Made by a program: the position numbers and the translations under genes
Shown here: piece after piece, positions 3,001-64,000 of the stretch
How the letters are laid out: each line of letters starts with the position of its first letter
Numbering within the stretch: the stretch's first letter is position 1
The notes under the pieces: generated by a model
Database searches by the model: none
Told to the model about the DNA's origin: nothing
The model's input: only the letters and a program-made list of their open reading frames with translations
Assembly: GCA_905178155.1 (NCBI GenBank)
Contig: CAJINV010000002.1
Location: forward strand, 6,720,771-6,784,770
Reading direction: 5' to 3'
DNA length: 64,000 bases
DNA from: Amoebophrya sp. A120
Lineage: Eukaryota; Protista; Dinoflagellata

Positions 3001-6000
3001 GAACGTTCGGGGCGCAGTCTGCAGCCAGTAACCTGCCGCAGTCTGGGACCAGCAATCGAACCAGCGGAGGGGAGCAACCTGTGCAGAGCGGGATGTTGGG
3101 CTCAACCACGTCTACCGCGCGGCTAAGCGGCGAATCGGGTCAGACTCAGAGCGGTCTGCAAAGTATTGCCCCAGGGTCTGATCGTCCAGGGTCTTTTGCA
3201 GTAGATTCCTCCGCGACCATCGCTGAGGAGGCCCACAAGATCTTGAGTTCATCTTCAGGACGAAAAAAACAGATGCTCCGGAGGTCGAGCGACCGGCCTT
3301 CGCAGTCGACTGTGCAAAGCGAGGGCGCACCACCAGAAAACCGCACGGAGCAGATTTTCGGGAAACAGGAGCTGTCTCCGCGGGGCCAGATGCTGAGAGT
3401 GAAGCCCTCCGCGAGTGCCTCGGGATTGAGCATCACAAGTGGACAGAGTGGGGCCTATAACAGCCTTAAGTCATCCAGGGCCACAGGGGATGACAGCACA
3501 ACGAATAAGGGCAACCACAGTCCTCCAGGGCCGGCCCAGATGGACCTCCTCCAAGGCAGCTTACCGAATAAGCACCAAAAGGATCAGCTAGGTGCCTCGG
3601 CCGGCGGCGCGGGCGGTGCTCCTTTCATTTTCTCGTCCTCCTCCAGTGGCGCGAGCGACGCCCCGGCATTGACATCGAGCAGCGGCACGGGGCTCGGCGG
3701 CACACAGCTGACCGGCAGCATGCCGTTCGGGACCGGGAGCACGGGGAGTCTCTCCGCCTCCTCCCGCAGGGCGCCCAGAGAAGGCGGATTTCAGAAGAAC
3801 CAAGTGCCCGCCCGGCAGCACCTCGACCAGGCGGGGGTTGGCCCCGGGGGCGTGCGGTTCAGCCCGGTTTACAACTACCGGAACAACGTCCCCGCGGGGC
3901 CGGGCTACAACCAGTCGGGCATGCAGTTTCGCGGGGCGGACGTGGTGCAGGAGCAAAAGGACCCGAATTGGCTGCACAAGGACAAGCCGCAGCCGAAATT
4001 GGTGAATTTCCAGCCCATGAACCCGGTGTACGGCGGGATAGGGAATCAAGAAACAACCCAGCAATTCCAGACCTTGGAGCACCTGCAGCCGCAGCACGGG
4101 GCGGCCAACTCGATTTACGGGGGCTTCAAGGAAAAAAACCGGCTCGATTTCTTCGACCGCCGCATCGGAGGGGTGGACGAATTCGGCATCGACCTGTACG
4201 CGCAACAGCGCAAGATGGGGGACGGGGAGTACTTGGAGGTGGACCCCCTGCACGGCTCGCACCAGCAGAACTTCGTGGAGCGGGACCAGTTTGTGATGTA
4301 CGAGCAGCAGGGCGCGACGGAGAAGTTCGCGCGGAACAAGGCGGGCACCGGGGCGGACTACCTGGCCGGGGACCATCAGCATCAGCAGATGGTGGCTCCG
4401 GGGCGGCAGGTGGAGCGCAAGTTGAAGCACATCGTGCCCGGGTCGGTGCCGCAGGAGAAGGACGTGCAGTACAAGCGTGGGCCGAACTACCGGATCCTGT
4501 CCAAGGGCGGAGACCAGGACTGGAACGCGTCGATGCGGCAGGGCGTACAGTTATCCTGTTGTTGAAAAACGTCTCTGTGAGGACCCCGACCCCGTAGTCA
4601 AGTTGTAGATGAGAATTCGAATTGTTGTTGCGCATGACAAATCCGGGCTCGTAGTGTAGTCGTGGTAGCGAGTGCAGCCGCATGGCAGGTAGATCATCTA
4701 TATCATGTTCCTAGCGTGACAAACACCGAGACGGGACTAGTGAACGCTCCTCAGGAGGCTACGCATGACGAGAAACTTTCAAGTCATGTCGATTTGCATG
4801 ACCATCACCATGACATAGATGGAGCGGGGGGGACGTTTTCCCTGTTGATAGCAGTTCAACCCGGCAGCGATGGACGCGAACCGCGTGGATTCCCCCCAGA
4901 CTGTCGCCCAGGCAGGCGACTGGATGCGGGGGGACACGCCGTTGTACATGCCCGGGGAGAAAATGACGGAGTTTCTCACCGCGGATCAGGCGCGGCACCG
5001 AACCCGGTACCTCGACGCCGTGCAAAAGCAACACGCGAAGTGGGAGCTGCCCGAGCCGGATCTGAGCCTGGTTCCCCCAAACCAGCGCACCGCGGAGATG
5101 CAACGCCGCGAGCAAATGAAGAACTACGCGCCGAAGGTGAATGACGCCTTCGGGCTGCAGCAGCGGGTGCAGATGGCAAGAGAGCTTGGGCTGGACGAGG
5201 CGCCGGCCATGGCGACCGGGGTGAGCGGCGCGGCGGGCAGCGTGGCCATTCCTCCCTACTACACCACCCCGCGGCTCGGGACAGCAGCACGCCCGGTACC
5301 TGTTGGGAGCGGAAGTGCAGCTGCGCCGATGTCGGTCCAGAGCGGAATGTCAAGTGGCCCTCGCGTCGCTGGAGTTGGGAGCACCGTGGTGCAACCGGCA
5401 GAGAGCATCATCGACCAGCACCAAGAGCAGGCGAGGGCGATGGGAAGATCCGGCAGCGGTCCGCCACCCCCCATGGTCACCGGCTCGATGAACATGGGCG
5501 GCGCGACCGCCAGTGGGACCAAAATGAGCACCCGGCTCGGCGTGGCTTCTCTGAGCCCAAGTCTGTCGCAGCAGACGGGCAGCGGGAAGGGCAAGCAGAA
5601 GCAGAGATACCCCGACTTTCCCGCGAACACGTACCAAACAACCAACCTCTCCCCTGGCGCGATGGCGCAGGTGCCGACGTACGTGCCCGCGCGCCCGAAA
5701 ATGACGTATGAGCAAAAAGACTTCAAGTGGGGCATGAACGCGACCTACGCCCAGCAAATGACCGCGCAGGGGTACAGCGGAACATTAAACGCGCCCGACC
5801 GGCCGGATTTGGGGATTAAGGATCCGAGACTGAACGCAAAGGTCCTGGAATACCTCGCCCGGGACGACAACGAAGTGAATTTATCGGAAAGGCTCCAGAC
5901 CGTGGTTGCGCAGAACCAGATCATCCGGCAACTCGGGGTGATCCCGCTGGAGTTCGACTCCCTGGACGCGCTGCACCCGCGCAACTTAGAGGTGATGAAG

Positions 6001-9000
6001 CAGACCATCTACCCCACCATGGCGAACGACCACATGGCGGTCGCCTGGATGGAGCGCGGGCACGTGCAGCGGCGGGGGATCTTCGACAACCGCATGGACC
6101 ACGAGGCGGATGAGTACACTACGCATGTCGATGACGAGGAGATCCAGAAGATGCTGCGGGAGATCATCCAGCCCGGGCACCGGGGGAGCTTCCACGACCG
6201 GTTGGATGAGCGGCAGCTGCACTTGAACACAACGAAGGAGAATTTGAATCCCTACTTGTTAGCTCGTCCGATCACGACGGACGGGCGGTTGAAGTCCGCT
6301 CCGATCCGGAACAAGCAGTTGGAGAAGATCATCGCGGAATGCGAGGCGGAGCTGATCAACATCGAGCACGACATCCCGGAGATTCCGTCTTTCGTCGAAA
6401 CCTACAAGTACGGGGAAGTCGAGGGCTTCCGGCTCGGCGACATGGAGAGCCTGTTCCACGGGGTGCAGGACGACCCCGCGATCGAGAAGGAGAACCGGCT
6501 CCGGTGGCTCAGTCCGTCCTCCGGCCGCGTGCGGGCCGGGTCCTTCGAGGCGATCATGCACGAGCTGAAAATGTCGGATAAAATGGACATGGCCGCGGTG
6601 AAGCGGGGCGAGCGGGAAACGAGCAGGAGTTACACGTCGCGAAAGCTGGAGGCGATCGCGAAAGTCCCGGGATTTAACGACGAGTACGATGCGCTGCAAA
6701 TGTTTCCGGAGTTCACCGAGGCGATGGAAACGGGGAAGACCATTTTGGAGGAGCAAGCGGAAGTGTACAGGCAACGGGAGCAGGAGGCCATGGACGCCTA
6801 TCGCCGGAAAAAAATGGAGGGTGGAAAGGTGACTAACGTGAGCAGCGCAGTCGTGAGTGGACAACTACAGGCGGCGGAAGGGGAGGACAACATGGCTTCG
6901 ATGGCATCAGGGATGTCCTCGACGGGTTCAGCAGCAGCGCGAGCTTCCACAGCGTCCACTGGGAGTAGTGCCGCGGGTCAAGAAGCTCCTGCTGCACCTC
7001 CGCGGAAACCAACGCAGAACAATTTAAGCGGTGCTATGGGCGAGGGAATGAGCCTTGGCCCGCAGGTTGCGTTGTTTTACGACGAGGACGACGAACGGCC
7101 GTCTCGCGGCCGGTCGGACATCTTGGGCTCCGCGGGGATTGTTGATGACGACGTGGCGGGCGCAGCCAACATGGTCAGCATGTTCACCGGGGACGACGAC
7201 GACCCGGCCGGACACAAGATGGCCGCCAATTATGTTGACGCCACGCAGGAGCGACCGGTGATACAGCGCCCGACGGCGATACCGCCGAACGCCGTGGGGG
7301 GTGTGGGGGAAGTCATGATGAACCCGAATGCGCCCGCCCCGAGATCATTATACAGCGAGGGCAACCAGCAGCCCCCGAGTTCCACACATGCGCACTACCC
7401 GGGCAGCAAAGTTTCTGGAAATAGTAGAATAGGAAGCGGTCAAAATACTAAAGGCCCTTCATCGAAAAAGGCAACGGAACCCTACGCGGGCAGCAAAGTG
7501 TACTCGCAGCACCGCGACTCGTTCGCGAAACGGCAGCAGCGGGACCGCGACACGTCGTTGCGGCATTTGAGCCGGGACGAAAATGTGTTGGACGCGACGA
7601 ACAACAACAGTTCGCTCGACCGGGTGGGGAGAAACGACGCGACGTACCTGAAAGGGTTGGACCCGTACACGAAGGGCAAGCTGTTCGGGAACGAACAATC
7701 GATCGGCTCGCGCGCGGGTCTGGGCTGGAAGGATTTGCAACCGAACGCGCGCAAGAGGGACCGGGACCTCGACCGATTGGAGAACGAGATCCAGAAATCG
7801 ATCTGGAACGCGTCTTTGAAAGTGGAAGACTTGGAAGCGAAGGACGACGCGGTCCCGGACAGCTTTCAGGAGCAGGTGCCGCAGTCGAAGCGCGCGTTCG
7901 CGGCTTTTCTGGAGCGGTTCTGGCAGTTGGCATGCACCACAAATTACCACCTGGAATTGCGAGTAAATCTGTTGAAGCAGATTGTCGCCAAGGAAGCGAG
8001 GTACGAAACGTTAACCAGGGAAGAACTGGAACTACTGGACTGCAACAAGCCTGAGGAGGTTTTCGGCTTCTTCGAGAGCTCGATGCACACAGGGCAAAGA
8101 ACCCGCGCACGGCATTTTGAGGGCCTGACGCGGCGCGCGAGACGGAATTTGGAGGAGGAACACGTCTCCGTCGCGGCGATGGACTACAACGACATCATGG
8201 ATGAGAAGTTGAACCTCGAGCAGGAAATGAAGCAGCTGGTCGAGCAAAACGAGCAATTGGTCGCGTTGGAGAAGCACGAGCGCCGGCTGATGGAGCAGGA
8301 CATGCGGGAAATGCTGCACCAGACGCTGGTCTGGTGGGACACGTATAAACTGCAAAAGCATCGCACTCGTATAAATGCATATACAAATACTCTCAGCGTC
8401 AGAAATAAAATTTGTAATGCGGATTTACCATACGAAAATGCATGACTGCAATACGAGTGCGATACTTTTGCACAGGATAACACGTTGCGCAACCGGATTC
8501 TGGCCAAAGAGGAGGAGAACAGCACCATCTTGGAGCAGGAAGTGCACCGGTTGCGGTTCCTATCCACAGTAAATTTCCCGTACACGTACAAATTCGGAAT
8601 CTGCATGACAAAACTTGGGCTCTGCAAGGTAGCGAAACTTGTCATGCATTTTGTATGCCCATGTACAGGAAATTTACATTGCATAGCTCCAGTTCGAGGA
8701 CTACGCGAGCCACGAGGGCCGGTTCCGGGAGGAGTACGCCGCGTACCTGCGGGACCGGTCCGGCGTCGCGAAGGACCTGCAGCACATGCTGGGCTTGTGC
8801 ACGGTTTCCGAGGCCGCCACGATCCGGAAGGAAACGAAGATGGTGCGGCAGAAAACGCATCTGCTGGAGATCTTGCTCGACGCGCTGGAGGAGATCCGGT
8901 CGGTGAGATCGATGTACTACAACTTGGAACATTTCAGCAAACTGCCGGAATACTGGCGCGGCCAGGAAAACGCGGTGGGCGTCGACGCGCACAAACACGA

Positions 9001-15007: not shown

Positions 15008-18000
15008 ATGAAAAAAACAGACAAGATGATGGGGCGGGCTCAGGCGCAGCGGGGCTTTCGCTTTCCTTTTGTGGTTACTCTTGTCTTCGCGACGTGTTGT
15101 CGCTTTGCCTATGGTGGGGAGACTACGTCAGCAACATCACACGTGCATCTTGAAGATGTCTCCTCCCCGTCCGCGATCGAGGAGGATCATGTTCATGTGA
15201 GGATTCCTTCGGGCACGACGATGACTTCACCCCCAGAGCAACTTCGAGAGCCCGCTGTCAAAAACATTCAAGGCGGACCTAGTCCTCCGAACCCGTGCGA
15301 AGTGGCTCTGCGAGAGCAAGTGCGAGGCACGACTTTGACGCAATTCGGAAAATTACTGCTCTTCGGTACGGGAAAACAAATTCCATACGACGCAGGAAAG
15401 TACAAGTTTTGCCGAGCACTGGAAAACGCAAAGTATTTCCTGGCGGAGTTCCAGTACCAGTATGTCAACGGGGGTGAGGTGGAGGAGGAGCAACAGCAGA
15501 AGCAAGGATATCATGGCGCTTTTACGAAAGAGGACGGCACCAACGTTGTCGAAAATCTGCTTGCGCCAGCAGTTTCTGAAGTGCTTTCGCGAACGACCAT
15601 ATCACAGGATGATCGGGAGGACAAAATTCTTGAGAAAAACGATGGGCAGCACCCATTGTTCTCGTTCCCGAGAAACATCATTCTCGATGCCCTCAATCCC
15701 ATGCTTCAAACCGAAGACTTGTTGACGGGAAATAAACTGTTTGCAAACCCGGCGATAATTGATGCCCGCCGAGGACATCCGAATCTTCACGCAGCTCCGA
15801 ATAAAGCCTTGGCCATCCCGATGAAACTGGGTCTGTGCCTTCCCGCGACGCACGTGGTCAATAACAAGCGCCTCCCAGCTTGCACGAAACAAACCGTACA
15901 CGACATGCTGCAAGACTGGATGCGACCCAAAGCGGCTGCGCGAAGAGGCTCGAAACTTTCGTCCGCATCAGCAAGCCATGAAGCCGAACTGCAGACACAA
16001 ACCACGACCAAACTGGAAGATGAAGATCAAGATGATTCAAACACCCGTCTGCTCAGCGCCGTCATTCCCACCGATTCCAAGCAAAAGGACGCGACCAAAG
16101 TGCAAATCACCTGCCCCGAGGAGGACACGGTGACTTCCCTCGATGACTACGCGATCGCGTCTATCGGCTTTCTCGGGCTATTGCTTTTGACAGTCATTAC
16201 CGCGACCTTCCGGGTGCAGGTTTTCGAAGCTGCGATGGAAAAGTACGAGAAAAATGTCAGGCTGCAATCGGAACTGGATCGGAGACTAGTGGAGAGTTAC
16301 TGCAGCAACAGCGTGTCGACGAGCAGTTTGCTGAACAGCAGTTATCCAAGTTCGGAAGTCGGTGGTGGGGAAAATAATGATGTTTTGGTCGTCAACGCCG
16401 AGACCATTCAGACACCGAGAGGAATGGAAGATGGTACTCTTTCTAGTACTGAAGTAGATGTATGCAACTTTTATTGCCTAAGCGTAGTTAGGTAAATGGT
16501 ACAGACTTGTTTTTTGTGATTGATATTCAAGATTCGTGATGAGCAAGACATGTTGACAATTACAAATCAGAAACAGGCTCTACCGACGGCACGCCCAGTA
16601 CGGCATCGTCACCAAACGAAGCGGAGCCAACATCACAAGCTACTACACCTAGAGGAGCCACAGCAGCAGCACCTGCAGTTGTTTCGTCATCCTCTGCAAA
16701 ACAAGCAAAGCAGCTCAACACGGGCACCGCGTCCCGGCCGCTTCTCATCGTCGACACGCTGATGGAGCGACGGTTAGAGGAGCAGACCACCATCCCACAA
16801 CTCCCCCGTCCGATCGCCCCACCACTATGGGCGAAAGCGTTTGCGCTGTTTGGGAAGACAGGGACGTTGACGAAGTTGTTTCAGACAAATACGAACACAG
16901 GAAGAAAAAACAATTCGCCCAGAAAACCCCACACCAACGACCGGCCGACGGATTGTCTGAACGGAATGCGGGTTTTGTCTATGCTCTGGATCTATCAAAT
17001 GCAAAAATGTCTGGGTCTGGAAGAGTCCAAGACTTGTGATGCAGGTTTTCCATGACCCGTGAGGTCTGGAATGCGAGACCCAGCATGACAAATTCTTTGA
17101 GGTCTCTATCATGCCTTTCCTGCGTGAGAAACTCCCTCTCAGCTTGGTCAAAAGCGGACAGCTTTTGGCACTCACGCAACACAGATTTTTGCATCATTCA
17201 GATTTAGCATGACAGGTTCTAATCTTCCCGACCCAGACATTTCTACATTTGATAGGATCATCCTTGGCCATACCTTTCTCATGCCCGAAGGCCTCACCGG
17301 CTACAGCAACAACGAGGACATCGCGAGCATCATGCGACCGTTCGTGACCGCTGACTTCAGTAGCGAGACCGCGCCCTGGCTGATGTTTGTGCTCGCTGCG
17401 GAATTTGGGGTGGACAGCTTTTTCTTCATGAGCGGGTTTTTGCTCTCCTTGCTGCAACTACAAGAGCTGGAGAAGAAGCACGGGAAGAGGAGTATCAGGG
17501 ATAGAAGAAGTGGATCATCTGCTGAAAATTCTACAAATCGCAGGCCGTCCCTCTTCCAACACTTCAAAAAGTGGCTTTTTGGCTTGTTCCAGCGGTACGT
17601 CCGGTTGACCCCAAGCCTGGCACTGGCTTTGATGCTGTACTACAAAGTTCTCTACTTTTTCGTCGCGATTGGCGACCAAGGGAGCAGCGCTGTTCCTGTC
17701 GATGGTGATAGCATCGTGCAATCTGTCCCCTCCTCCGGGCCTTTCGTCCCCTTACTGCAAGACTCGATCAAGAACAAGTGCGATTCCTCCTGGTGGAGCG
17801 AACTCAGCTACACGGTGAATTTCATCCCCTTTGACTCCGACAAGGTCTGCATGGGCTGGAGCTGGTACCTGGGGAATGACATGCTGTTTTTCGCAGTGGG
17901 CACGGTAATTGTGCCGCTTTACTTTCACAAGTCGAAACTGCATGGGGTTATTCTCCTGCTCACGTTTCTCCTCGCCGCTGTCGGGATCACGACCTACCTG

Positions 18001-18618
18001 ATTTACCACTACCATTTATCCCCTTATCTCTTCGACCGGCACTACCTGGACTACAGCTATTACGCTTATTCGAAGCCCTACTGCCGGATCGGCGCTTATC
18101 TGATCGGGTTAGCGACCGCGTGGCACGTGCTGGAGCGGGAAGAAAAGCAAGACCATGCGAGGTTTTTCGGCAGTAAAAGGGCGAGCGTGTTTTTGCTACT
18201 GGCTTTTTCCGTTTTGGCGGTGTTGATCTTCATTCCGGCAACGGACGGGGGGGAGAACAAAAACAGCTGGTCCGATTTGGAGTCGAATTTGATGCTGAAT
18301 TTCGGCCGGCTTTTCTGGGCCGGGTGTCTGGCCGTGATCGTCACGCATTGCTATTTTGGGCACTATCCGTTCATTGACAGCGTCTTAGCGCACGAGATCT
18401 TCACGCCTTTAACGAGATTGTGCTACGGGGCGTATCTGTGCCATCCGTTGGTGATCAAGTATTTTGCCGGGACCAGCCTGCAATTTTACAACTTCGACCT
18501 GCATACGATCTTCTCCCAGTTTCTCCTACACACGGTTTTGTCGTTTTTACTCGCGGTGGTCTTGTGGTGTCTGGCTGAAAGGCCAGTGATGACCATTGCA
18601 GGCGCTTATTTGAAGTAG
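15008..18618 (+). CDS. NRF-6 / O-acyltransferase-like protein (N-terminal NRF domain plus acyltransferase-3 membrane domain); two introns (~16460-16570, boundaries uncertain; 16993-17259)
   Basis: Motifs DCLNGMRVLSMLW(I|I)LGHTF, VDSFFFMSGFL, RYVRLTP, CMGWSWYLGNDM, YSKPYCRIGAYLIG, YGAYLCHP, ERP; N-terminal DAGKYKFC...GLCLPA...C. Confidence 0.9.
16993..17254. mobile_element. Introner, family A (forward orientation)
   Basis: ~30-bp TIR tatcaaatgcaaaaatgtctgggtctggaa / ttcccgacccagacatttctacatttgata; perfect GGATC direct repeat; interrupts the conserved MLWIILGH motif. Confidence 0.95.
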
Positions 18619-40231: not shown

Positions 40232-40610
40232 TTCTGTGCTAAATGCCGCGTTGGCGTTTTTTGTTTTTTCAATTTTGCACTATTTCTAGAATGAACGATG
40301 GCGATACGAACCGAAATACAGGTAACTGCATTCACGATGGATGGTACCGCATCGATTTCTTCCAAACAGTATGCCACAGAAAGAAATTCGAAATGGCTTT
40401 CCGCAGTAGGATTTTGTTTGTTTGTTACTTATCTACTCCTATGCAATGCATAGTATGCATTTTGCATCGCACCACCAGCGTCAGGCGTGAGCCGTAGTGT
40501 GCCTGTCTCAGCATTGTAGAGGATGTGATTTGAGTTTATTGACATTGACGACATAGACGCCATTTTCCTAGTTTCGAATTCCATACATCGTCGCCAAGGG
40601 CGGTAAGCAG

Positions 40611-50500: not shown

Positions 50501-53500
50501 CAAACTTCTCAAACAAGTACGTCTGAAGATGTTCTTGGCACGACCGGAAGTAGTACAACCAGTGCAGGGGCGGCTGGTCGTGAGGGTCGTGAACACAAGT
50601 ACAACAAATCCTACTCTCTCCATCAGGCCTACAAGAGCGAAGCAGCAGCGAAGACGGCGGAGCAGGCTGATGCTTTCCAGAAGCTGGTAAAGTTTCTCAC
50701 AGAAAGCGACTTCGCGGGACTTTTCGCTGTGGACGAAGAAGAAGAACAGCAGGCGTGCAATAAACTCCAGCTCTTTGGTATCCCACGAAAAAACTGTTTC
50801 ACTGTGATGGTTTTGCAAGATCCGCATCACAAGTTTGCTAGACATGACACAGAAAATTTGCCATGCGCGTTTTCCAAGGGAAAATACGCGTAAAAATCCA
50901 ATGCCTTGCAGGTGTAGCAAGACAACTAGTTCTGTGTTCCATTCTATGCATCACAAGTTCACAGTGAAACAGTTTTTTCTTGCGATATTTGGCGCCGGCC
51001 AGTGGCCGCGAACATTCAAGGACCCGCGCGTGGTCTCCCTGACGCAAGCCTTCGCGTTTGTCTCGGACCAGCCAGGTGCAGGTTATGCATTGCAAAAGTA
51101 TCGTACTAGTATAAATCGCATGACAAATTTTATCAGGAAGAACATTGGAATTTGTAATGCAGATTTGGGTAGGAAACCCGATTTGTCATGCATACCTGCG
51201 ATTCATACGAGTACGATACTTTTGCAGTGGATACAGGTGACCTCCAGTTGAAGGTCCAAAACGCGCTCGATCGGCTGCAATTCGAATTGATTCCGGACTT
51301 GCGCAAAGCTTGCTACAACTATACTGGTCCACCTGGTCCTGGTGCTAAAAAAGGAATTATAGAACAAGGAGGACTAGCAACAGCGGATGATGATGTCCCT
51401 GATGTTGAACAGAATCCTTGTCTGCGTTTCGAGGCGCACCGCGGGAGTGCGTTGTTGCGAGAGGATGCGCAGAAGAAACAGAAAATCCCGCACGAGCGGA
51501 TCATGCTGCAGCAGGTTTTTCGTGACAAGGAGGGCATGGCGGCGTTTCAAAACGGAGCCGCATGGACGACTTTTGTCGCCGCGCTCCAGGAATGGGGAGA
51601 GAAAGAAAAAATCCTCGATGTGTTGCCTCCAGAAGCAAGAACAAACGCCGCTGGACGAACTACAAGGGCAGCAGCTCCTCCTACGGATTCTACTTCTGTT
51701 GATGACGCTGGTGCAGCTACTACAACAGGAACATCAGCTTCTGCTTCGCTGCCAAGTTCTTGGAGTGCTTTTCTAGACTTGTCGTCGTGGGGGCGCGGCC
51801 GCACGACCGCCGGTGCACCGTTTATTCCGTCAACATCTTCTGTTTCGGCAAACGACTGGTTTTTGGAGAACGACCTTTCCCAGGACTTCGTCATCCCGAG
51901 CACAAAAACCTCAGAAGACCACGCCAGCGGAGCAGGACCACCTTCGTACCAGTTCACTGCTCAATATGCCCGGGACTCGCAGCTAAACGATTGGAAAAAA
52001 CGCGCATTCGACAGCTCCGTGGCTGCGACAACACGGGTCTTTGCGTTCACAGACGATCCGGCGAAGAGGGACTCCGTGAGGAAGATCACGGTTGAATTGG
52101 AGAGCACGCAGCTAGGCTTTTTGTTCGCTGCGTGTGGCGAGTCGTCAGCGGCCTCCGCAGCTTCATCATCAAGTGGGTGTCTGTACGTCGACGCCTTCAA
52201 GAAGAACGAAAAAGTAACTGCAGCAGGAGGGTCTACAACTACTACTTCTCTCCTCGCAGTTGTAGAGGAAGGTCAAGATGATGTTTTGACAGGCAGTGGT
52301 GCATCTTCCTCTTCGTTATCAAGAACCGCTACAACTACTACAACTGGCGCCAGCGTAACCTATGTTTTGCAGGAGGCCTTTTCCGATCAAGAAGCTTTCT
52401 TTGCTTTCCTGCAACGGACGGCGGCGTTCGAAACGTGGGTGAACTCACCCGAGGTCCAGGCGGTGATGGTGCATGATGATCTGCCCCCGGGTCGTCGTAT
52501 GTATGATAGCTTGCCAGGTGCAGCAGCCCGGGACGGAGACGACTTCGTCGGTAGACAGTTTGGCCTCCAGGACTTGCCGAGCCTGTACAGTTTGAGCAGT
52601 ACCATCCAATTCACGTACGGTGCGGGAAACAACCTGGCGGACAAGTTCCGCAGCGAACTGTTCCCGGCAGTCAAAGCAAGTTGCTTGCAAAAATTGAAAG
52701 CGTTCCGGAAGAGGGACTACATTGCCGACGACCGATTGTTCTGCGAGCGTTGGAGCTTCTTTGAAGACAGTGCCGTTCCTATTGCAGGAGGTAGTGGTGG
52801 GAGTAGCTTGCCGCAATCACAACTTTTACACGTTGACAAGGCACATGACGACAAAAATTTTCCTCCACTGGAAGGTACCAGTATCAAAGATGTGGAGCAG
52901 GGCCAACACATCGCCAACCTGACCTTGCTAGACAAAAATGTTCCCACCAAAGAGAACGCATTTTCACCACTGTTGCGAAACAAATTTTTGGAGCCCCGAA
53001 AGAGCGGCACAAGCAGGACACTTTTATCTGATAAAAACGAGCAGCTGCAGCTCAACAAGAAAGAAGCGCCAGCATCTCCTGCTGCCCCCCTCTCCACAGA
53101 AGACAAGGAGTTAAAGGGGAGCCAGAACATCGTGAAAGTGGTTCGCTTCACGACGCACGAGGTCTATTATGAGAGTGCACAACCACAACCCCGTCCCCCT
53201 CGTCCCCCTTAATTGTCATGCAATATACCTCCAAATTCACGGTCACGGTGGATTTATCCACTATTCGGCTTTACCGTGTGGCACTGCTTGCATGACAGAC
53301 TCCGAAAGCCATAACAGCGTTACTATACAATCGCTACGTAAAACTAAAAACTTTGTCATGCAAAAGCTGCATCAGCTACAGGTACAGCTTCAGCATCTGT
53401 GCCTCCGGGACTCGTGTTGCTGCGGATGCGATCCAAATGAGGGTGAGGGGGAATTTTATTGCACTCTCATATTTATCCAGACCGCCACGCGTTTCTCGAG

Positions 53501-56500
53501 TATGTGAGGACCGACGCAGCGTTTCAAAACCTGATACAAGCAGTGATGGACAACAAGGACCTGATTGATTTCACAAACGGCCGCACCAACATTTCGTTTC
53601 TTTCCAAAGACCACGACGGCACGGGCCTTATGCCCGGTGGGGACTTTGTGCGATCCCAGGCACTGTATTCGGTCTCTGCGCCGCTCTCGGACGCTCTCTT
53701 CCGCGACCAGCAGCCCGCATACGCAAACGGGTCTACTTTACCTGCGGCACAGGTGCTGAGCGATTCGCTCCCGCAGAGCGAGAGCGTGTGGCACCCCCAG
53801 TTAGGACCGCAGGAACAGACGTCGGGGGAGGTTTATGTATTGAAATTCAAAGACGACGTGCCGGAAGCGCAGATTGCGCACGCCGTAGCGTCGTTGGAAC
53901 AGGATGACGGTTTTTTTCCATCCTTGTGCGAAGCATGCCGACTGCAACCGTCTTGCTACTACTACAACGTGTTTCGCAGCACGGGTTTCGGCACCTCTAC
54001 CGATGTCGTAAGGAGCGCAGCGACTGACTACAGCAAATCCTACACGATTCAAGCCGCATTTAAAAATAGCGTGAGTGCAGTTGATCAATTCGAGCAGACT
54101 CCGGCGTTTAGTAATTTCAAGGCCTTTCTTGAACAATCGTCTGACTTGTTCCAGCAGGACGCGTCATATAAGTCCCTCCAGCAGTATCGCGAGGGACAGT
54201 GGCCCCACGTTGTGGACCCTTACGCGGGCACGGTCAGGAGTATGAATTTGCTCTTCACCTTCGCGGAACCCGACGAGACAACGGACGCGGGCTTGCAGGC
54301 GGCAAATGACATCATTGCTACCATCGACGAACTACAATACAACCTGATCCCAAACTTAAAGGACGCGTGCTACGGGCCGCAGGATGAAAGCACACTGCAG
54401 CTGTACAACAAGAAGCACCTCTACTCAGCTGGACAAGAACAGCCGTTGCTCGGTGCAACACAAGAAGCCAGGAGGAGCGCACCTCCTGCTTCTGCTGGGA
54501 GAAAATTTTCTGGGCAGCAGAAATTCTCGCCCCAGGTAGAAGACGTAGCTGGAGAAGGTCCTCTACTTCGCGGGGAGCCTGAGCGTGAGCGTGAGCAAGG
54601 AAGAAGTTACATTAACTCAAACTCAGGTCGTGGTCTTGCTCCTGTGCTCACCGCCGACCTAGATAAACCAAAAAGCGAAAACGTCGACCCGGCACAGCCG
54701 GGGTGTTTGCGCGTCGAAGTCTATGCCGACAAGAACGCGGAGGGGAGAATCAAGACGGTGCTCTTACAGGTGGTTGTGCGTAGGGAGAATTGGCCTCAAA
54801 TGGTAGACGACGACCACGGCGTGCTCAAACCGATCCTGGATAAGCTCAACGAAAGCAAGTCTGCTGGGTTATTGCAAGAACTCGACGCGGACCACGAGGT
54901 GCTCGACAATTTGGTGAATACGAGTGGTTCAATCAGGTCTGGAAACGACGCCGCGGACAACTTTGGATTTCTGGTTAGCGGAAAAATGACCGACTCGGCA
55001 GCAAGCGCCTTGGACCTTGTGGTCTGGCAAGATTCAACATCCACTACTTCGGTCGCCGCTGCGAGGACCGCGTTACTGCACGATAGCAATGTTGTTGCGG
55101 AGACGATTACTCTCGCCTTCAAGCCAGGGGTTTCTGACGGGAAGGAATTCACTGAAGTGTGGAAGGAGCTCAACACAAACTTTTTCCCCTCACTATACAA
55201 GGCTTGCTACAAGGACGTCGACGCTTCTTCTAGAAGTACTGCACCCGGTGTTGAAAGTGATTCCAACTCGGAACTAGTCTTTACCTCTCCTGGCGCTTTA
55301 AAAACGACCAGTGCGGTGAGGAGCACGACGAGACAGCAGGCGCAGGTAGAAAGGCGAACTAGGACATCAGAGATAACTACGCCGACAACAAGAACTCCTG
55401 ACTGTCTTTATGCCGACGTGTACAACTACACCCTACCTTCAGACCAGCGGGGCTATCTGCTTCATTTTGCGTTCGCGAGTCAAACCGCTCGCGACCGGTT
55501 CTTCGCGGCTGCCGGGCCCAAGAGCTTCCAAGAGTGGGTAAAGAACGACGAAACGCTACAGAAAGTTCTTAGGAAGCCTAGCCGCACACTCGCTCGCTTG
55601 TCGCAGTTCGGCCTGGAAAATCTGCCGGGGCTCTTCAGCGTGCAAATGAAAATTCACATTTTCGATAGGATCGTGTGGGCAGAGGTGCTAAGGAAAGTCC
55701 AACAGATCAAGAAGGACGTGTGTATCCTGCAGTATCACAGCCGTGACCTGTGCGAGCGGTTTAACGTATACCTTGCGAATAGTGGCGTTTATTCCGTGAA
55801 ACTCAACTATCCCCATCCCCTTCGTCATGCCACCCACACAACATTTAGGAAAGTCTGTGTTTGTCATGCAAAAAATTATAGATGGGGATGGTTAGAAATT
55901 TTCACGGAATAATGTTGTAGCGGGTGCCACAACTGACTATTTTGTGACCACGCACGAAGTCTACCCCGACGCTTACGCCTGGCGGCAGCATGTGTTGAAC
56001 TCGGCTGCATATCAGGAACTGCTCAAGTCCGTCAAAAGCGCTTACGACAACAAAAACATTGATGCAAGTGACACCGTGCTTTACGGCTTCACGAATCCCA
56101 ACATCGACGAGAAGAAGGTTCTATCAACTGTAAAAGTGTCTGGGTCTGGAAGATTGGCAGCTTTGTCATGCATACTTTGCATGACCCGTGAAGTCTGTAA
56201 TGCATGCACGAGCATCACAGATTTTTAGAGGGCTTCCTAGTAATGCCTATTCCGCATGAGAAAGCCCCTCTCCGTGTAGCCCACCCGCCAGGAGTCAAAT
56301 GGTACTACTACTACTCGTGTAGCCCAAACTGGAGTCCTCTTGCAGGTCACGCAATACAATTTTTTTTTGAATCCAGAGACAGCATCACAAGTTTAGAATC
56401 TTCCAGACCCAGACATTTTTGCATTTGATAGGTCCCCTTTCCCATGACCGGCTACCTTCTCCGCCAGGAAACCGAGTCGGACGCGAACATGCGGACGCGG

Positions 56501-58267
56501 GACGGGGCGGGTGCCGCGAAGGACCGCAGTTTGGCCCCTGCGTTGGCACTTCACGACCATCTGCCCAACCAAACGAAGTGGCCGGAGCCGCAGGGTAGAT
56601 TGAGCCCGGGGGGACAGACGTTGATACTGCAATTGAATCCGAAACTGTCCAAGAAAAAACTGTGGAAAAAGGTGAACTTCTTTTGTTGCTGTAGTATTTT
56701 TGCAGAAGATACAAAGATGCCAGTTGCAGCTACGCTAGGCATGTTGTTTGATATGCATCCGGGATACGCTCCGCTAGCTGCAAATATCGTGTTCTGATCA
56801 CGTGCTAGCCAAGCAGGACAGGACTTCTCTAATGTGCAGAAGATGCTAGTAAAAATAGTAATAGATATAAAATGCGTAGGCGAAAAAAATGTATAAGCTT
56901 AAGTAATCGAAGAGCTAAAGCGCAGAGTAACTGTAACACAGTTTTTTTCTTCGATACGAGTTGATGGAGCTCGCGGCCAGAGACCCAGATGCGGCGGCGT
57001 GGCTGCAAATGTGTACCAAAGTGAAAAGTGCCCCTACCTCCCCAGAGCAGCGACATATTTGTAAATACGAAAAACTTCTACTTCTCCGTGGGAGCATTGC
57101 GTTTTTGCCTCCTTGCGTGTGTCCTTAATAGCGTCACAAGTCTCTTTTCCCAAACACCGTGATGCTGCACATTGGCAGCCGCGGCAGCACAGCAGACGCG
57201 GTATAATTTGTCAACACGCTCCTGGACGAGCTGCAAATCTCGCTCAGAAAGATTCTGAAAAAAGAGAGCGTCGCACTTCTTTCATGCAAGACAGAGAGAC
57301 TCCAACTTCTTTGTGCTGAGGACTGTGCATCACAAGAAAAGTTTCGCCCGTCTGGTGGTGGGGGTTGGGCATGATTTCAGTTTGATATTGTGTCAAAACT
57401 ATTTGGAGACCCAGCTCCTGCCCAACATCATGGACACCGATTGCGGAATTTACGATCCGGGAAATTTCAACAAGAACGATTGCATCTACTGGAATGCGTT
57501 CAAAAGTTATCCATTGCAAAAGTAACGTAGAAGTGCAGCTCGTACCAGGTGCTACTTGATTTTTGCAGTGAGTCATGCATGACAGATCTCGTCCGGCTTT
57601 CCAGTCTATATCAGCCTTGCAAAGAGCGTCACTTTTGGTTCTGAAGAATTTGCATTTGTAAATGCAATTTCAATTATTTCTCCTACGTACTAGGATCGCA
57701 TCGGTGCGAAAACGATACAACTTCTGCAATGCATAAAGGTTGGGGGTTCACCAACAAGGTCGGGCGGGAAAGATATTATATCTTGCAGGAGGCCGACGGT
57801 GTCAAGGGTCTTTCGACGAGGAACTACGGAACCGAGTGGCAGAACTTGGTAACTTTTGTCCAGGTATCAAATGCGAATATGTCTGGGTCCGGAATAAAGT
57901 TGGAACTTGTGATGCTGCATTTGGATTCTAAGAAAAGGCGTGTTGCATGAGCAGCCCAATTTTTGCTGCGCCGAAAGGGCATTTTTCAAGCGGGATTTGC
58001 ATCAAGAAGCCCTCAAAAACTCTGTGATGCTAGCGCATACACCACAGATATCATGGCTCATGCAAAACGTGCATGACAAAGCTGCACTCAACATCCAGAC
58101 CCAGACATATTTGCAGTTGATACATGAACAAAGCGTACAATGACCAAAAAGGGCACCAAACCTTTCCTTTGCTTGAAGAGGGGAGCAATTTCTACAAATA
58201 CGTAAGCGAAGAGCTTAACTTCGAAAGCAGTCCATTTGAAGATGCTAATTCTCCATCTCGTCCTTGA
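44570..58267 (+). CDS. Giant (~3,535 aa) type II membrane protein with 16 Cys-paired ABM-like repeats; exons 44570-45804, 46051-49084, 49325-49390, 49658-50778, 50993-51083, 51239-53167, 53477-55789, 55917-56121, 56436-56678, 57401-57507, 57741-57864, 58128-58267
   Basis: Single TM segment (WCVAIWLLVIVGSSAVVAGVVVAVYYL), PIIPV stalk, then repeats such as LQFELIP.LR..C...CLRFE.F, QPGCLRVEVY, CERF..FE and TQEVYPDR; all joins are in frame and the exon total is 10,608 nt. Confidence 0.8.
45374..45488 (+). repeat. 18-bp coding tandem repeat encoding (PIIPV[I/T/E/V])n stalk
   Basis: ccgattataccggtgatc-type units, about 6 copies. Confidence 0.9.
45805..46045. mobile_element. Introner, family B
   Basis: Family B TIRs; perfect ATTCT direct repeat; joins ERIL|FHEVY. 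Confidence 0.95.
49085..49319. mobile_element. Introner, family B
   Basis: Family B TIRs; perfect CCTTC direct repeat; joins TTF|QSAI. Confidence 0.95.
49391..49652. mobile_element. Introner, family A (reverse orientation)
   Basis: Family A TIRs; flanks CCACC/CGACC; joins ALPT|CLKF. Confidence 0.95.
50779..50987. mobile_element. Introner, family G
   Basis: tatcccacgaaaaaactgtttcactgtga / tcacagtgaaacagttttttcttgcgata; perfect TTTGG direct repeat; joins QLFG|AGQWP. Confidence 0.9.
51084..51233. mobile_element. Introner, family C (150 bp)
   Basis: tatgcattgcaaaagtatcgtac...gtacgatacttttgcagtggata; perfect CAGGT direct repeat. Confidence 0.95.
53168..53471. mobile_element. Introner, family H
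   Basis: tatgagagtgca...tgcactctcata; flanks TCTAT/TTTAT; joins HEVY|PDRH. Confidence 0.9.
55790..55911. mobile_element. Introner, family I (122 bp)
   Basis: tattccgtgaaa...tttcacggaata; flanks GCGTT/ATGTT; joins NSGV|VAGA. Confidence 0.85.
56122..56430. mobile_element. Introner, family A (forward orientation, with an internal insertion/duplication)
   Basis: Family A TIRs; flanks GGTTC/GGTCC; internal repeated cgtgtagccca. Confidence 0.9.
57508..57735. mobile_element. Introner, family C-like
   Basis: tatccattgcaaaag...cttctgcaatgcata; flanks AAAGT/AAGGT; joins FKS|WGF (cf. FKSTGF in sister repeats). Confidence 0.85.
57865..58122. mobile_element. Introner, family A (reverse orientation, degenerate flanks)
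   Basis: Family A-like TIRs; flanks CCAGG/CATGA match at only 2 of 5 positions, but removing element + 5 bp restores the frame. Confidence 0.8.
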
Positions 58268-60319: not shown

Positions 60320-63300
60320 ATGTCCTCTGCTAGAAAACAGATGAACAGCTCGGGCTCTGCCAATGCGTACCACTATCGTGGCAGTGCCGCCATTCCCGCC
60401 GCCACGCCCACGTACCAACACCAGCAGCAACAGCGTTTCTATCCGGCGTCCAACGAAGAGATGGACCACCTGGAAAGTGCAGAGCACCCGCTGCTGAGCC
60501 ACCAGAACCACACGGCGCGAGCCGGAGGAGCGTGTGCCGCCCCGACGGGTTGGAACATGGACGAAGCCATGCACTACCAGCGCACCATATCCACGGTACA
60601 ATTATTTTTCCCGGACACGACGTACAGATGCGGTTTTTCATCTGCATAACAAAGTTTGACGCCGTTGATCCTAGTAGTTCTTGGCATGACAAGTGGCAAC
60701 ATGCTTTGCGTTGGCGAAATTTGTGATGCATTTTGTACGACGTCTGCGGGAAATTTGAATTTTCTGTGGATACACCATCCGGGCCGGGACGGCATCCTCG
60801 TCTCATGACGCGGCGGCCAATGGGGCGGGCAACAAGAAGTCCTGCATGGCGCCCTGGGTGGTCGCCTTGCTTGTAGTGCTCGGGGTGGCTGCCCTGATTG
60901 GTATCATCGTCGCTATCGCGATTGCCTGCAAGCACAAGGAAGATGAAGACCACAAGGGCACCGTCTTCAGTTTGACGCCCGTGCTTATGTTCAAGGCCAC
61001 GGACGACAAAACTACACAAGACACGATCAAGGCTGCCTTGACTGATTTGAATGACAACCTCGTGCCGGCGTTGCGCAAAGAATGTTATGAAACGCAGAAG
61101 GACACCTGCATGCGGTTCGAAGCCTTCGCTATCGAGAATGTGCCTGTTGCCAACGACGCTAAGCTACAGTCGCAGGCGAACTTCCACATCGTCACCAAGG
61201 GTAGCTCGGGGATGGATTCGCTGCAGAAGTCGCAGCCCTACCAGGCGTTGTTCGTGACCGCCGTGAAAAAGTACAAGGACGACCTGAAAATTATGGACGA
61301 AGACGTTGACTACCTGGTCCCGGGAGACGAAGACAACGACCGCAACGGCTCCAAGTTCCCGGACCATTCCACGACGGATTTCAAGATCAAAGTCGGGGAT
61401 AACAAGGACGAGCAGAGCAGCGCCAAGGCCGCCATCGAAAACAAGCCCGTGGACTGGAAAACGCTGGCTGTGAAAGACGCGAACCATCCCGCGCACGGCC
61501 AGGTGACTACCGTGATCTTCTCCTCGGACAAGAAGGAGGACGCCGACGTGCAGAAAAATATGGACACGCTGGAGCAGACGCACGTGCCGGCGCTGACCGC
61601 CGCCTGCTACGACAACAAATCGGGCGCCAATCCCCCGAACTGTTTGTACCTCGACGTTTTTAAGGCCTACACGCAGGACTGCATCAAGAAGGGGACCACC
61701 GGCGGTGATTGCAAGCAGTGGGTTCACAGCACCGTGTACACCTTCCAGCAACTGTTTCTGACCTTCGACGCCTACGACCAGTGGGCGAAGGGCGACGGCG
61801 CTAAGGCGCTGACCGATTTTCAAACCTGGGTCCAGTCTTCCGACAGGGGCACGCACCGCTACGTGACCATCGATAGCACGGAGTTCGGCTTCTCGCATAG
61901 TACGCCGACGCCTCCAACACCGCAGGAGGGCGATTTGGTTTCCCTGGTCATGAACGTCACCTTCAAGGATGAGGCCGGCATTACGAAGTTGGAAGCCGCG
62001 GACAAGGCCAAGCGTGGCGCCTACGTCGCGAACCTCGAGAAGTTGCAGTATAATCTGATTCCCGCCCTGAAGAGCGCCTGCTACGGAACTACAGGAGCAG
62101 GGGCCGCGCCAGGGCTCACTGGGTGCCTCCGTGTGGAAGCGTTCGCGACGAAGGATGGCAGTGGCACGCGCGTCACGGGCACTCTTCTCCACGTGGTTGT
62201 ACGAAAGGAAAACCTGGACACGTTGCAGCAAAACGCCGCTTTTAAGGCAGTGGTGGCCGGGGGGGAGTTCGTCGCTATGGCGAACATGTTTGTCGATAGC
62301 GCCCACACACTCGACAAGACGCCGGTTGCTGCGACAGCAAAGAATCTGACAATGACACTAGCTGACAAAAAAACCACGGTCGACTCGGCCAAAGACGTAG
62401 CGGATATNTCTGGGCCTGGGAATCGAAGGGCAACGTCCTTGACTACCTCTCATTGTCTAGCGGTGGTCCGTACCAGCACATTCCGCTCCGTAAGCCTTCA
62501 CCGCAGGGGGGCGATTTGGTTTCCCTGGTCAACCATGTCACCTTCCAGGATGAGGCCGGCATTACGAAGGAGGAAGCCACGGACAAGGCCAAGCGTGGCG
62601 CCTACGTCGCGAAACTCGAGAAGTTGCAGTACAATCTGATTCCCGCCCTGAAGAGCGCCTGCTACGGAACTACAGGAGCAGGGGCCGCGCCAGGGCTCAC
62701 TGGGTGCCTGCGGGTGGAAGCGTTCGCGACGAAGGATAGCAGTGGCACGCGCGTCACGGGCACTCTTCTCCACGTGGTTGTACGAAAAGAAAACTTGGAC
62801 ACGTTGCAGCAAAACGCCGCTTTTAAGGCAGTGGTGACAGAGCTGACGGGGGAGTTCGTCGCTATGGCGAACATGTTTGTCGATAGCGCCCACACACTCG
62901 ACACGACGCCGGTTGCTGCGACAGCAAAGAACCTGACAATGACACTAGCAGACAAAAAAACCACGGTCGACTCGGCCAAAGACGTAGCGGATATCGATTC
63001 ATGGCGAGCCGCTTCGCAGGACAGCACCGTCGCCGGTGCGGTGTGGGCCTTTGTGCTGCAGGACGACAAAGAGGGATATGCGGACGCCGTCACGAAGCTG
63101 GAATCCGAACTGCTGCCCGACATGATCGCGCTCTGTGACAGCGTTTCTGATTGCCTGTACACCGACGTTTTCAAGATGGACAATAAGACTCCCACATCGC
63201 AAGGCACTCCCAAGATTACCACTTACATTCTGCAAGTCGCGGCGAAGACTGCCGCAGTTCTGAAGGACGAGTATTTCAACAAAGCAGGCACTAGTGATCC

Positions 63301-64000
63301 GGCCCCAGCCGAGAAATTGCAGCAGTACCTCAATACAATCAAAGAAACCGTCCTGTACACGGCTCCAGGTGCTGACGTAGAGCATGGACAGCAGATTGTC
63401 GGGGGAGTTGTCAGCGCGGGAACCGCCGTACTACAAGCGCAACCAACGTACGACAGTTACCAGCAGTTCGGTCTGCGGGATCTACCGGGGCTCTTCAGCG
63501 CAACCTATCCTGTGTAAAAACGTCCCCATCTTGCTTTTGTTGTCACGCAAATTTGCATGATGGAAATGTGAATGTCTTCCATGCGGAGCGGTCCCATGTT
63601 GAGACGCATTGTCTAGTAGCTCTGTTTGAAACAAATAATTTCTGATGCTGCAATGAATATAAGATAACGCTACTGGATTTGTGATGCTGCTGCACTAGCT
63701 CTACTAGCTGAACATGATTACATTCTGAGCCCAAACTTGTCATCCGCGACAGCCAGTCTGTTTATGTCATGCGCGACAGCCAAAGTTCTAAGTTTGCTGT
63801 TTTGTCTTGCAGATTTCCCAACTTGACTCTGGGGCGGGGACGTTTTCACATAGGATACGACTACGAAGATAGTCATGAAGGATAGCGTGACCGCTGACCA
63901 GGCGAAAACAGTAGTTGATGCGTTGCACCAGTTGTTTGTTAACCTGAAGCAGAAAACCTGCCTAGTTGCGAACGTCAACTGCGAGCGTTTCAACCTGTTG
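60320..64000 (+). CDS. Second type II membrane protein with ABM-like repeats (paralog of 44570-58267); runs off the window end; contains an assembly N at 62408
   Basis: TM segment WVVALLVVLGVAALIGIIVAIAIA; repeats LVPALRKECY..CMRFEAF, LQYNLIPALKSACY..GCLRVEAF, QFGLRDLPGLFS..CERFN. Confidence 0.8.
60588..60772. mobile_element. Introner, family D-like
   Basis: tatccacgg...ctgtggata; perfect CACCA direct repeat; joins QRT|IRAG. Confidence 0.9.
61917..62996 (+). repeat. Recent tandem duplication of a ~490-bp domain-coding unit (61917-62407 and ~62497-62996), separated by an N
   Basis: Copies nearly identical but with several substitutions and one small indel. Confidence 0.8.
63506..63857. mobile_element. 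Introner, family E
   Basis: tatcctgtgtaaaaacgtcccc...ggggacgttttcacataggata; flanks CAACC/CGACT; joins FSAT|TKIVMK...CERFN. Confidence 0.85.

What the first reader, a model, noticed from the sequence alone, without database searches (positions are those of the whole stretch)
4552..63857. 24 MITE-like elements acting as non-GT-AG introns under one rule: TA-[TIR...TIR]-TA plus a 5-bp target duplication
Seen: 24 elements from about 9 TIR families, all inside coding exons, none noticed between genes. In every case deleting the element plus 5 bp (one direct-repeat copy) restores the frame. It often rebuilds a conserved motif (MLWI|ILGH in the acyltransferase, HEVY|PDR and ERIL|FHEVY in the repeat protein). 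Most cannot be given GT-AG ends by sliding within the repeat. Known: inverted/direct-repeat non-canonical introns ('introners') have been described in Amoebophrya, and to my knowledge their excision mechanism is unresolved. Inference: removal is guided by the TIR hairpin and the direct repeat, either by a non-standard RNA splicing route or by DNA-level excision; the TA ends are reminiscent of ciliate IESs.
Basis: partly seen in the sequence, partly recalled or inferred. Interest (0 to 1): 0.9.

Follow-up and report, generated by a model that had tools for sequence, protein, structure and literature searches.

The report
Strand-symmetric transposon introns of Amoebophrya
These are the already described odd introns of the marine parasite Amoebophrya A120: small transposon-like inserts that stay in the DNA but are missing from the transcript and protein records checked, and that all share TA ends, a 5-base flanking repeat and an internal 10-base motif that is likely a DNA-binding site, which gives a handle on a removal mechanism that is still unknown.

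Summary
Confirmed and largely known. The window is Amoebophrya sp. A120, whose inverted/direct-repeat introners were described in 2021 (PMC7789003). I find 25 elements, all in coding frames: 24 end TA..TA, 16 have a perfect 5-bp repeat, 3 can be given GT-AG ends. Removing element+5 gives ORFs of up to 3,428 codons. An RNA contig and annotated proteins lack the elements; DNA contigs keep them, so DNA excision is unlikely. New here: (1) a 10-mer, TTTGT[CGA]ATGC, sits in every element and nowhere else in the window (40 of 40 exact hits) and in 318 of 321 perfect-repeat elements of an independent marine assembly; it is often spaced 31-33 bp and is strand-indifferent, like a double-stranded DNA site; (2) elements lie in either orientation in genes (45:40), with no selection for GT-AG; (3) mismatched repeats tentatively place the cut after repeat base 3 or 4. 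Ends resemble IS3EU/GingerRoot, which make 6-bp repeats. The scan noted similar hairpin introns in other dinoflagellates. No transposase or excision intermediate was found.

The parts
4552..4850 (.). element, family 2; repeat ACAGT/GCAGT; weak TIR with an indel; in gene 1
8344..8479 (.). element, family 1; repeat ACACG
8561..8685 (.). element, singleton; repeat GTTCC/GCTCC
16993..17254 (.). element, family 0; repeat GGATC; splits MLWIILGH of the Acyl_transf_3 gene
23609..23923 (.). element, family 7; repeat ACGGT; in a gene with a C-terminal RING-like Cys pattern
24000..24254 (.). element, family 0; repeat CTGTG; 20/20 TIR
34929..35163 (.). element, family 6; repeat GAATT
41051..41180 (.). element, family 9; repeat CCCGA; PCNA-like gene; spanned by an unbroken DNA contig
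41217..41523 (.). element, family 7; repeat GATGA; PCNA-like gene
41575..41724 (.). element, family 1; repeat TCGGC; opposite orientation to the copy at 51084; RNA contig resumes at 41725
42371..42520 (.). element, family 1; repeat AAGAT
42592..42853 (.). element, family 0; repeat ATGGA
43074..43333 (.). element, family 0; repeat TAGCA; right end mutated to TG yet absent from the RNA contig
45805..46045 (.). element, family 6; repeat ATTCT; repeat-protein gene
49085..49319 (.). element, family 6; repeat CCTTC
49391..49652 (.). element, family 0; repeat CCACC/CGACC
50779..50987 (.). element, family 3; repeat TTTGG
51084..51233 (.). element, family 1; repeat CAGGT; GT-AG reachable; absent from CAD7934455.1
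53168..53471 (.). element, singleton; repeat TCTAT/TTTAT; splits HEVYPDR; kept in DNA contig
55790..55911 (.). element, singleton; repeat GCGTT/ATGTT; annotated protein has the residue of the left copy
56122..56430 (.). element, family 0; repeat GGTTC/GGTCC; GT-AG reachable
57508..57735 (.). element, singleton; repeat AAAGT/AAGGT; annotated protein and paralogous repeats favour the left copy at base 3
57865..58122 (.). element, family 0; repeat CCAGG/CATGA (3 mismatches); RNA contig aligns from 58126, repeat base 4
60588..60772 (.). element, family 12; repeat CACCA
63506..63857 (.). element, family 2; repeat CAACC/CGACT; motif copies all in one orientation
39153..43391 (+). PCNA-like host gene holding six elements, five GT-AG introns and one inferred GC-AG intron (end coordinate approximate)
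44561..58267 (+). repeat-protein host gene with ten elements; its 3' part is CAD7934455.1 (start approximate)
15008..18618 (+). acyltransferase host gene (P0001, A120)

Best explanation
These are short inverted-repeat elements with TA ends and a 5-bp flanking repeat that stay in the DNA and are absent from the RNA contig and proteins checked; they are likely non-autonomous copies of one transposon system, and are likely cut out of the pre-mRNA by a non-GT-AG route guided by their paired ends. Shown: one end signature TAT(C/G)-N6-AAA, one repeat length and one internal 10-mer across families; either orientation in genes; no constraint on the flanking sequence. Inferred: an integrase-type transposase (IS3EU/GingerRoot-like ends) binds the 10-mers on double-stranded DNA and makes the 5-bp duplication. 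Inferred: because the two ends are complementary, the transcript presents the same ends whichever way the element lands, they pair, and an activity other than the standard spliceosome cuts at a fixed offset (1-2 nt before the stem, 3-4 nt after it) and joins the exons, so that one repeat copy is left and the frame is restored, as in Euglena nonconventional introns.
For: Repeat length is 5 only: 266 of 513 candidates exact at 5, 3 at 4, 1 at 6 in an independent assembly. End consensus is shared across families. Motif: 40 of 40 exact hits inside elements; 308 of 308 perfect-repeat, strong-TIR elements elsewhere. 18 of 36 family-level same-orientation spacings are 31-33 bp, and family 2 carries it on one strand only (165:2) yet lies 13:6 in genes. 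Orientation 45:40 and 13:14 in the two largest families. GT-AG reachable in 8 of 167 against 3.9% expected. RNA contig length 977 nt over three elements fits element+5 with an open frame. DNA contigs unbroken through 4 elements. Cut position: RNA contig at 57865 (base 3 left, base 5 right) and annotated protein at 55790 and 57508 (left copy at bases 1 and 3). 19 of 25 elements have their terminal bases paired in the predicted fold of the transcribed strand. U1 snRNA was not detected in A25 or A120 (PMC7789003, passages).
Against: No excision intermediate was observed, so non-spliceosomal chemistry is an inference by analogy. The symmetric ends also give a donor-like nUAU and a 3' U-run in both orientations, which a modified spliceosome could read. 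Three elements fold weakly and one has lost its terminal A yet is removed. The cut position rests on one contig of depth 5 whose 30 unaligned bases I could not see, and on two annotated junctions, one of which coincides with a GT-AG slide an aligner would favour. Paralogous repeats weakly favour the right copy at 55790, and a likelihood test on 43 mismatches was flat. No transposase was found; PMC7789003 reports none in A120. IS3EU/GingerRoot make 6-bp repeats.
Confidence: 0.55

Rival explanations
1. A modified U2-type spliceosome removes the elements as lariats. It has lost U1 dependence and reads the element's own ends (nUAU at the 5' side, U-run and AUA at the 3' side), with the hairpin holding the sites together.
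For: GT-AG introns and elements share one gene. A cut after repeat base 4 would give every intron U at +2 and A at +3. Nearly all spliceosome proteins are present (PMC7789003, passages). MITE-derived non-canonical introns of Fritillaria are attributed to the U2 spliceosome (title cited in PMC11282704). Phase after the repeat is skewed 75/48/44, p 0.006, which would be a phase-0 excess for a cut after base 4.
Against: First and last intron bases are arbitrary, with no enrichment of G, AG or GT-AG in 167 sites. No 5'/3' asymmetry in end conservation was seen (after setting aside a library offset artefact).
Confidence: 0.27
2. A DNA-binding protein, perhaps a domesticated transposase, sits on the 10-mers and marks the element ends during transcription, recruiting the cutting activity or making the polymerase skip from one repeat copy to the other.
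For: The motif is universal, strand-indifferent and helically spaced. Weak-hairpin elements still carry it. Motif positions change less than the interior: 4.2% of 11,804 against 7.3% of 34,356 sites, with 5.7% expected from base make-up. Elements are enriched in coding DNA, 326 of 348 against 895 of 1,235 random sites.
Against: Transposase binding alone explains the motif. Nearest neighbours are 10-18% apart, so the conservation may predate insertion. In older copies (mismatched repeat) the motif decays nearly as fast as the interior (5.3% against 8.7%). Polymerase skipping should need matching repeats, but the 57865 element has 3 mismatches in 5.
Confidence: 0.12
3. The elements are excised from the DNA, as ciliate IESs are, before the genes are expressed.
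For: TA ends; transposon origin; strand symmetry; a DNA-type motif.
Against: Run X1 contigs span 41051, 53168, 55790 and 57508 unbroken at depth 42-44, equal to exon depth, and none of the 15 joints shown (of 972) is an excision joint. X1 may be the assembly's own sample, contigs drop rare variants, and other life stages were not seen.
Confidence: 0.04
4. The joins are reverse-transcriptase template switches across a hairpin between direct repeats, and the genes are pseudogenes.
For: Hairpin plus direct repeat is the recognised signature of this artefact (recalled; listing of PMC4176328 only).
Against: Frames of thousands of codons stay open only after removal. The A25 orthologue keeps the same MLWIILGH motif at 48% identity. 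The implied removal is 2 mod 3 in 17 of 17 unambiguous sites (154 tested).
Confidence: 0.02

Closest known systems
Introner elements (IEs) of Amoebophrya A120 (Farhat et al. 2021, PMC7789003)
   Same: Same genome; inverted repeats starting TAT, seven variable bases, then AAA; 3-5 nt direct repeats, a 5-bp example in Fig. S19 legend; non-canonical ends; RNA-supported.
   Different: Not different in kind. In the text and legends I read there is no internal motif, no single 5-bp rule, no orientation test, the splice position is called variable or unknown, and general transposase mobilisation is ruled out. The figures were not visible.
A120 introner families of Gozashti et al. 2025 (PMC12130899)
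   Same: TIR DNA elements of about 150, 260 and 305 bp; an A120 family with integrase-like ORFs between TIRs is reported.
   Different: Automated repeat lengths in the 21 of 58 rows I saw are 2-5 or missing and the superfamily is 'Unknown'; here the length is 5 throughout.
IS3EU / GingerRoot DNA transposons (PMC10045372, PMC6839031)
   Same: TA..TA termini, TIRs, no target sequence specificity, GC-rich targets.
   Different: They make 6-bp duplications (5 here); GingerRoot favours gene-poor DNA; no transposase was found here.
Euglena nonconventional introns (PMC12501133; review PMC11282704)
   Same: MITE-like, paired ends, non-GT-AG, coexist with conventional introns, cut sites offset from the stem with the shorter offset at the 5' side.
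   Different: Signature there is N3-CDG...CHG-N5-6 followed by a purine; here TAT...ATA with no exon preference. Circular products are shown there and untested here.
Ciliate internal eliminated sequences (recalled, no call)
   Same: TA boundaries, transposon origin, interrupt coding DNA.
   Different: IESs leave the somatic DNA and one TA stays; here the DNA keeps the element and a 5-bp repeat copy stays.

Membership tests
Amoebophrya A120 introner element | occurs in the A120 genome | tested here: met
   P0001 100% identical, named A120; P0011 = CAD7934455.1
Amoebophrya A120 introner element | terminal inverted repeat starting TAT-N7-AAA | tested here: met
Amoebophrya A120 introner element | 3-5 nt direct repeat at the exon borders | tested here: met
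   5 bp; 16 of 25 perfect
Amoebophrya A120 introner element | removed from transcripts at non-canonical sites | tested here: met
   7 elements by RNA contigs, 6 by annotated proteins; 12 of 25 by frame only
MITE (non-autonomous TIR transposon) | TIRs, fixed-length target duplication, short, non-coding, many copies | tested here: met
   summed depth up to 147,000 over element bins against about 45
MITE (non-autonomous TIR transposon) | cognate autonomous transposase element | tested here: inconclusive
   none in the window or 141 loci; whole genome not held
IS3EU/GingerRoot | TA..TA termini | tested here: met
   24 of 25
IS3EU/GingerRoot | 6-bp target duplication | tested here: not met
   1 of 513 at 6 bp against 266 at 5 bp
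IS3EU/GingerRoot | integrase-related DDE transposase | not testable with these tools
   no candidate protein found
GT-AG spliceosomal intron | GT/GC...AG ends | tested here: not met
   3 of 25; 8 of 167, chance level
GT-AG spliceosomal intron | lariat intermediate | not testable with these tools
   the 2 raw RNA runs laid did not cover these genes
Euglena nonconventional intron | N3-CDG...CHG-N5-6|R signature | tested here: not met
   ends are TAT(C/G)...(C/G)ATA, no purine bias after the repeat
Euglena nonconventional intron | paired intron ends | tested here: met
   (predicted folds; 19 of 25 end-paired on the transcribed strand)
Euglena nonconventional intron | excised as a circle | not testable with these tools
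   no suitable reads
ciliate IES | removed from the expressed DNA | tested here: not met
   4 elements inside unbroken DNA contigs of one run

The most novel reading that the evidence does not exclude
All A120 introners are one transposon system whose DNA-binding protein has become the cell's intron-definition factor: it binds helically spaced TTTGT[CGA]ATGC sites on double-stranded DNA and directs strand-independent, spliceosome-free removal of the element plus one 5-bp duplication, letting the elements target exons at no cost in a genome that appears to lack U1.
Probability: 0.12. Interest if true: 0.95.

Novelty: already known. Interest (0 to 1): 0.57.

Why it matters
More than 60% of A120 introns are non-canonical and how they are removed is an open question (PMC7789003). 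The class is published, so the finding as written is a rediscovery. What this check adds makes the question testable: one rule and one internal motif unite families that were thought unrelated and point to a single mobiliser; strand symmetry and a free flanking sequence limit which machines can do the cutting; and elements with mismatched repeats give a cheap way to map the true cut from existing RNA reads. The motif plus the TA/5-bp rule is also a practical detector for gene prediction in these parasites.

Tried and rejected
Whole genome not held. Raw RNA runs X10 and X11 gave 191 and 8 partial reads, all on elements, none on exons, so no read-level junctions, lariats or circles were seen; only one stretch (39000-58900) was laid. 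Viral contigs: 0 matches to the family-0 end. Protein searches with the 45-aa last exon and a 1,009-aa exon found nothing. My first PCNA-like gene model did not fit the contig length; the revised model fits, but its 5' half needs a GC donor chosen to fit. A plain stop-free test was weak: 268 of 334 for +5 against 224-240 for other frames. Likelihood mapping of the cut from 43 mismatches was flat. The end-conservation scan was cluttered by an offset artefact; I read it only qualitatively. A 2,459-nt TIR-bounded candidate in L075 is a family-0 element with a unique insert whose 414-aa ORF has no Pfam match; not a transposase by any test here. Of 12 motif clusters outside called elements, 1 had clean boundaries. 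Rfam: 0 matches. Resemblance of the motif to known RNA-binding or AP2 sites (recalled) was dropped: the central base varies and the strand is free.
Full report
Identity. A 452-aa exon of the acyltransferase gene is 100% identical to a protein named Amoebophrya sp. A120, and the next hit is its A25 orthologue at 48%. A 769-aa exon of the repeat gene retrieves CAD7934455.1, also A120. No whole genome was held.

The observation. I read the whole window and scanned it for inverted repeats and for TA..TA pairs with matching flanks. The result is 25 elements of 122-352 bp. All start TAT; 24 end ATA. The flanking 5-mers match exactly in 16 and differ at 1-3 bases in 9. The strict rule gives 14 hits at 5 bp, 1 at 3 bp, none at 4, 6 or 7 bp, and 0.22 on average in 50 shuffles. 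GT-AG can be reached in 3 of 25. Removing element+5 opens frames of 2,967+, 2,126 and 3,428 codons where the unspliced maxima are 1,520, 1,145 and 1,053. No element lies between genes.

RNA or DNA. Four runs were laid on 39000-58900. In X3 (RNA by guess; its contig skips a GT-AG intron, so it behaves as RNA) one 2,268-nt contig covers the PCNA-like gene. Its 3' part, 977 nt over three elements and one GT-AG intron, fits element+5 with an open frame; the one other length fit broke all frames. Its 5' part fits only with a GC donor that I chose to fit. The element with a TG end is among those removed. In X1 (kind not on record; even depth over introns and intergenic DNA, so DNA, possibly the assembly's own sample) contigs of depth 42-44 run unbroken through four elements. 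None of the 15 joints shown, of 972, is an excision. The raw RNA runs X10 and X11 did not cover these genes. The annotated proteins lack six elements and read MLWIILGH and HEVYPDR; A25 has the same MLWIILGH. Removal is therefore at the RNA level as far as these data go; other life stages were not seen.

An independent set. A 28-nt family-0 end matched 144 stretches of metagenome contigs; the 80 rows shown are all contigs named JACKZZ01. 141 loci, 550 kb, partly overlapping, biased to family 0, none orthologous to the window. Of 513 TAT..ATA candidates, 266 have an exact 5-bp repeat, 3 a 4-bp and 1 a 6-bp repeat. With the window's 25, 414 elements form 14 multi-member families and 20 singletons with one end consensus, TAT(C/G)-N6-AAA. 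Junctions score as coding in 326 of 348 cases against 895 of 1,235 random sites. Where both flanks gave a clear frame the removal needed is 2 mod 3 in 17 of 17 (154 tested, 134 unclear, 3 opposite strands).

The internal motif. TTTGT[CGA]ATGC or its complement occurs 40 times exactly in the window, all within the 5,741 bp of elements and none in the other 58,259 bp; with one mismatch 80 inside (shuffles: mean 3, max 10) and 17 outside; every element has at least one. I picked the motif from these elements, so the real test is the second set: 318 of 321 perfect-repeat elements, called without using the motif, carry it. 187 exact hits fell outside called elements; 152 of them are in element-like DNA and 35 remain in about 400 kb, often clustered, probably decayed elements, though only 1 of 12 checked had clean ends. 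Six GT/GC-AG introns of the PCNA-like gene have none. The outermost copy usually lies 30-54 bp from an end, and 18 of 36 family-level same-strand spacings are 31-33 bp, three helical turns (families are not fully independent). Family 2 carries it on one strand only (165:2) but lies both ways in genes (13:6), so the transcript has the motif in some genes and only its complement in others. That fits a site read on double-stranded DNA. The simplest reader is the transposase. Motif bases vary less than the interior (4.2% against 7.3%), but this does not show a role after insertion.

What the removal ignores. Of 414 elements 206 had a confident gene strand; the two largest families lie 45:40 and 13:14. 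In 167 perfect-repeat sites the five repeat bases match the coding background (lowest p 0.02), and GT-AG is reachable in 8, the chance rate. One flank position (two bases before the repeat, G-rich, p 7e-5 among 23 tested) and the codon phase (75/48/44, p 0.006) deviate and are unexplained.

Where the cut lies. At 57865 the copies are CCAGG and CATGA. An X3 contig of depth 5 aligns from 58126, repeat base 4, with no mismatch at base 5: base 3 from the left copy, base 5 from the right, so a cut after base 3 or 4. Its 30 unaligned bases were not shown. The annotated protein has the left-copy residue at 55790 (base 1) and 57508 (base 3), and three paralogous repeats read F[KR]STGF, favouring the left copy at 57508. 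Against: the 57508 choice is also the GT-AG slide, paralogues weakly favour the right copy at 55790, and a likelihood test on 43 mismatches was flat. This is tentative.

Mechanism. Shown: structure, DNA retention in one run, absence from the RNA and proteins checked, strand symmetry, free flanks. Inferred: one transposase with IS3EU/GingerRoot-like TA ends spreads the families; the complementary ends pair in the pre-mRNA and a non-standard activity cuts at a fixed offset and ligates (0.55). A U1-independent spliceosome reading the symmetric ends is the main rival (0.27); a motif-binding protein that defines the intron is the boldest reading (0.12).

What is in print. PMC7789003: passages, sections 11 and 16 in full, and supplement legends; it describes these elements, including a 5-bp example. 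The strings CATGAC and GTCATG do not occur in its supplement text; figures were not visible and may show the motif. PMC12130899: passages and 21 of 58 A120 rows; two files not searched. PMC9860276, PMC10045372, PMC6839031, PMC11282704 and bioRxiv 2024.09.05.611473: passages. PMC12501133: abstract and discussion. Searches listed no paper on the removal mechanism; the exact motif string is in 61 papers, and none of the 15 listed concerns Amoebophrya. Roy et al. 2023 (Curr Biol) and Henriet et al. 2019 were seen only as citations.

Verdict. Real, and a known class in its type genome. The shared motif, the single rule, the strand symmetry and the mismatched-repeat test are additions I did not find in the texts read.

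Noticed in passing
window 56670-57430: The short ORF at 57430-58267 is not a separate gene: the annotated A120 protein joins it to the repeat-protein gene through further introns.
   Followed up: partly
window 40115-40321: A GC-AG intron is needed in the PCNA-like gene for the model to match the RNA contig length; the donor was chosen to fit.
   Followed up: partly
window 39153-43391: PCNA N-terminal domain (PF00705, E 7e-5) fused to a long acidic C-terminal extension of no known family tested.
   Followed up: no
window 21274-29586: Tandem array of about five paralogous genes ending in a RING-like Cys/His pattern; only one copy carries elements (two), and a short remnant of the 3' end lies near 29940.
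   Followed up: no
window 44561-58267 and 60321-64000: Two paralogous, probably membrane-anchored proteins built of a repeated domain with no Pfam match; only 4 weak relatives among 1.84 billion representatives.
   Followed up: partly
window 61915-62990: A near-perfect internal duplication with an N at 62408 and a frame break, possibly an assembly fault.
   Followed up: no
window 40440-40470: Inside a GT-AG intron, a short stretch resembles a family-1 element end, perhaps a relic; it has no motif hit.
   Followed up: no
L075 476-2934; L047 5001-5972; L031 3862-4492: Family-0 elements with unique inserts of 0.3-2.2 kb that keep both ends and the 5-bp repeat; whether they are still removed is unknown.
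   Followed up: partly
run X10, on window 43252-43323: About 170 RNA reads carry only one end of a family-0 element flanked by foreign sequence, a half element apparently retained in a transcript or in DNA.
   Followed up: no
loci L001-L141: Codon phase of insertion sites is skewed (75/48/44, p 0.006) and G is enriched two bases before the repeat; unexplained.
   Followed up: partly
element ends, window and loci: Bases 4-13 of many ends (for example family 1) look like a degenerate copy of the internal motif, so the end itself may be one more binding site.
   Followed up: partly
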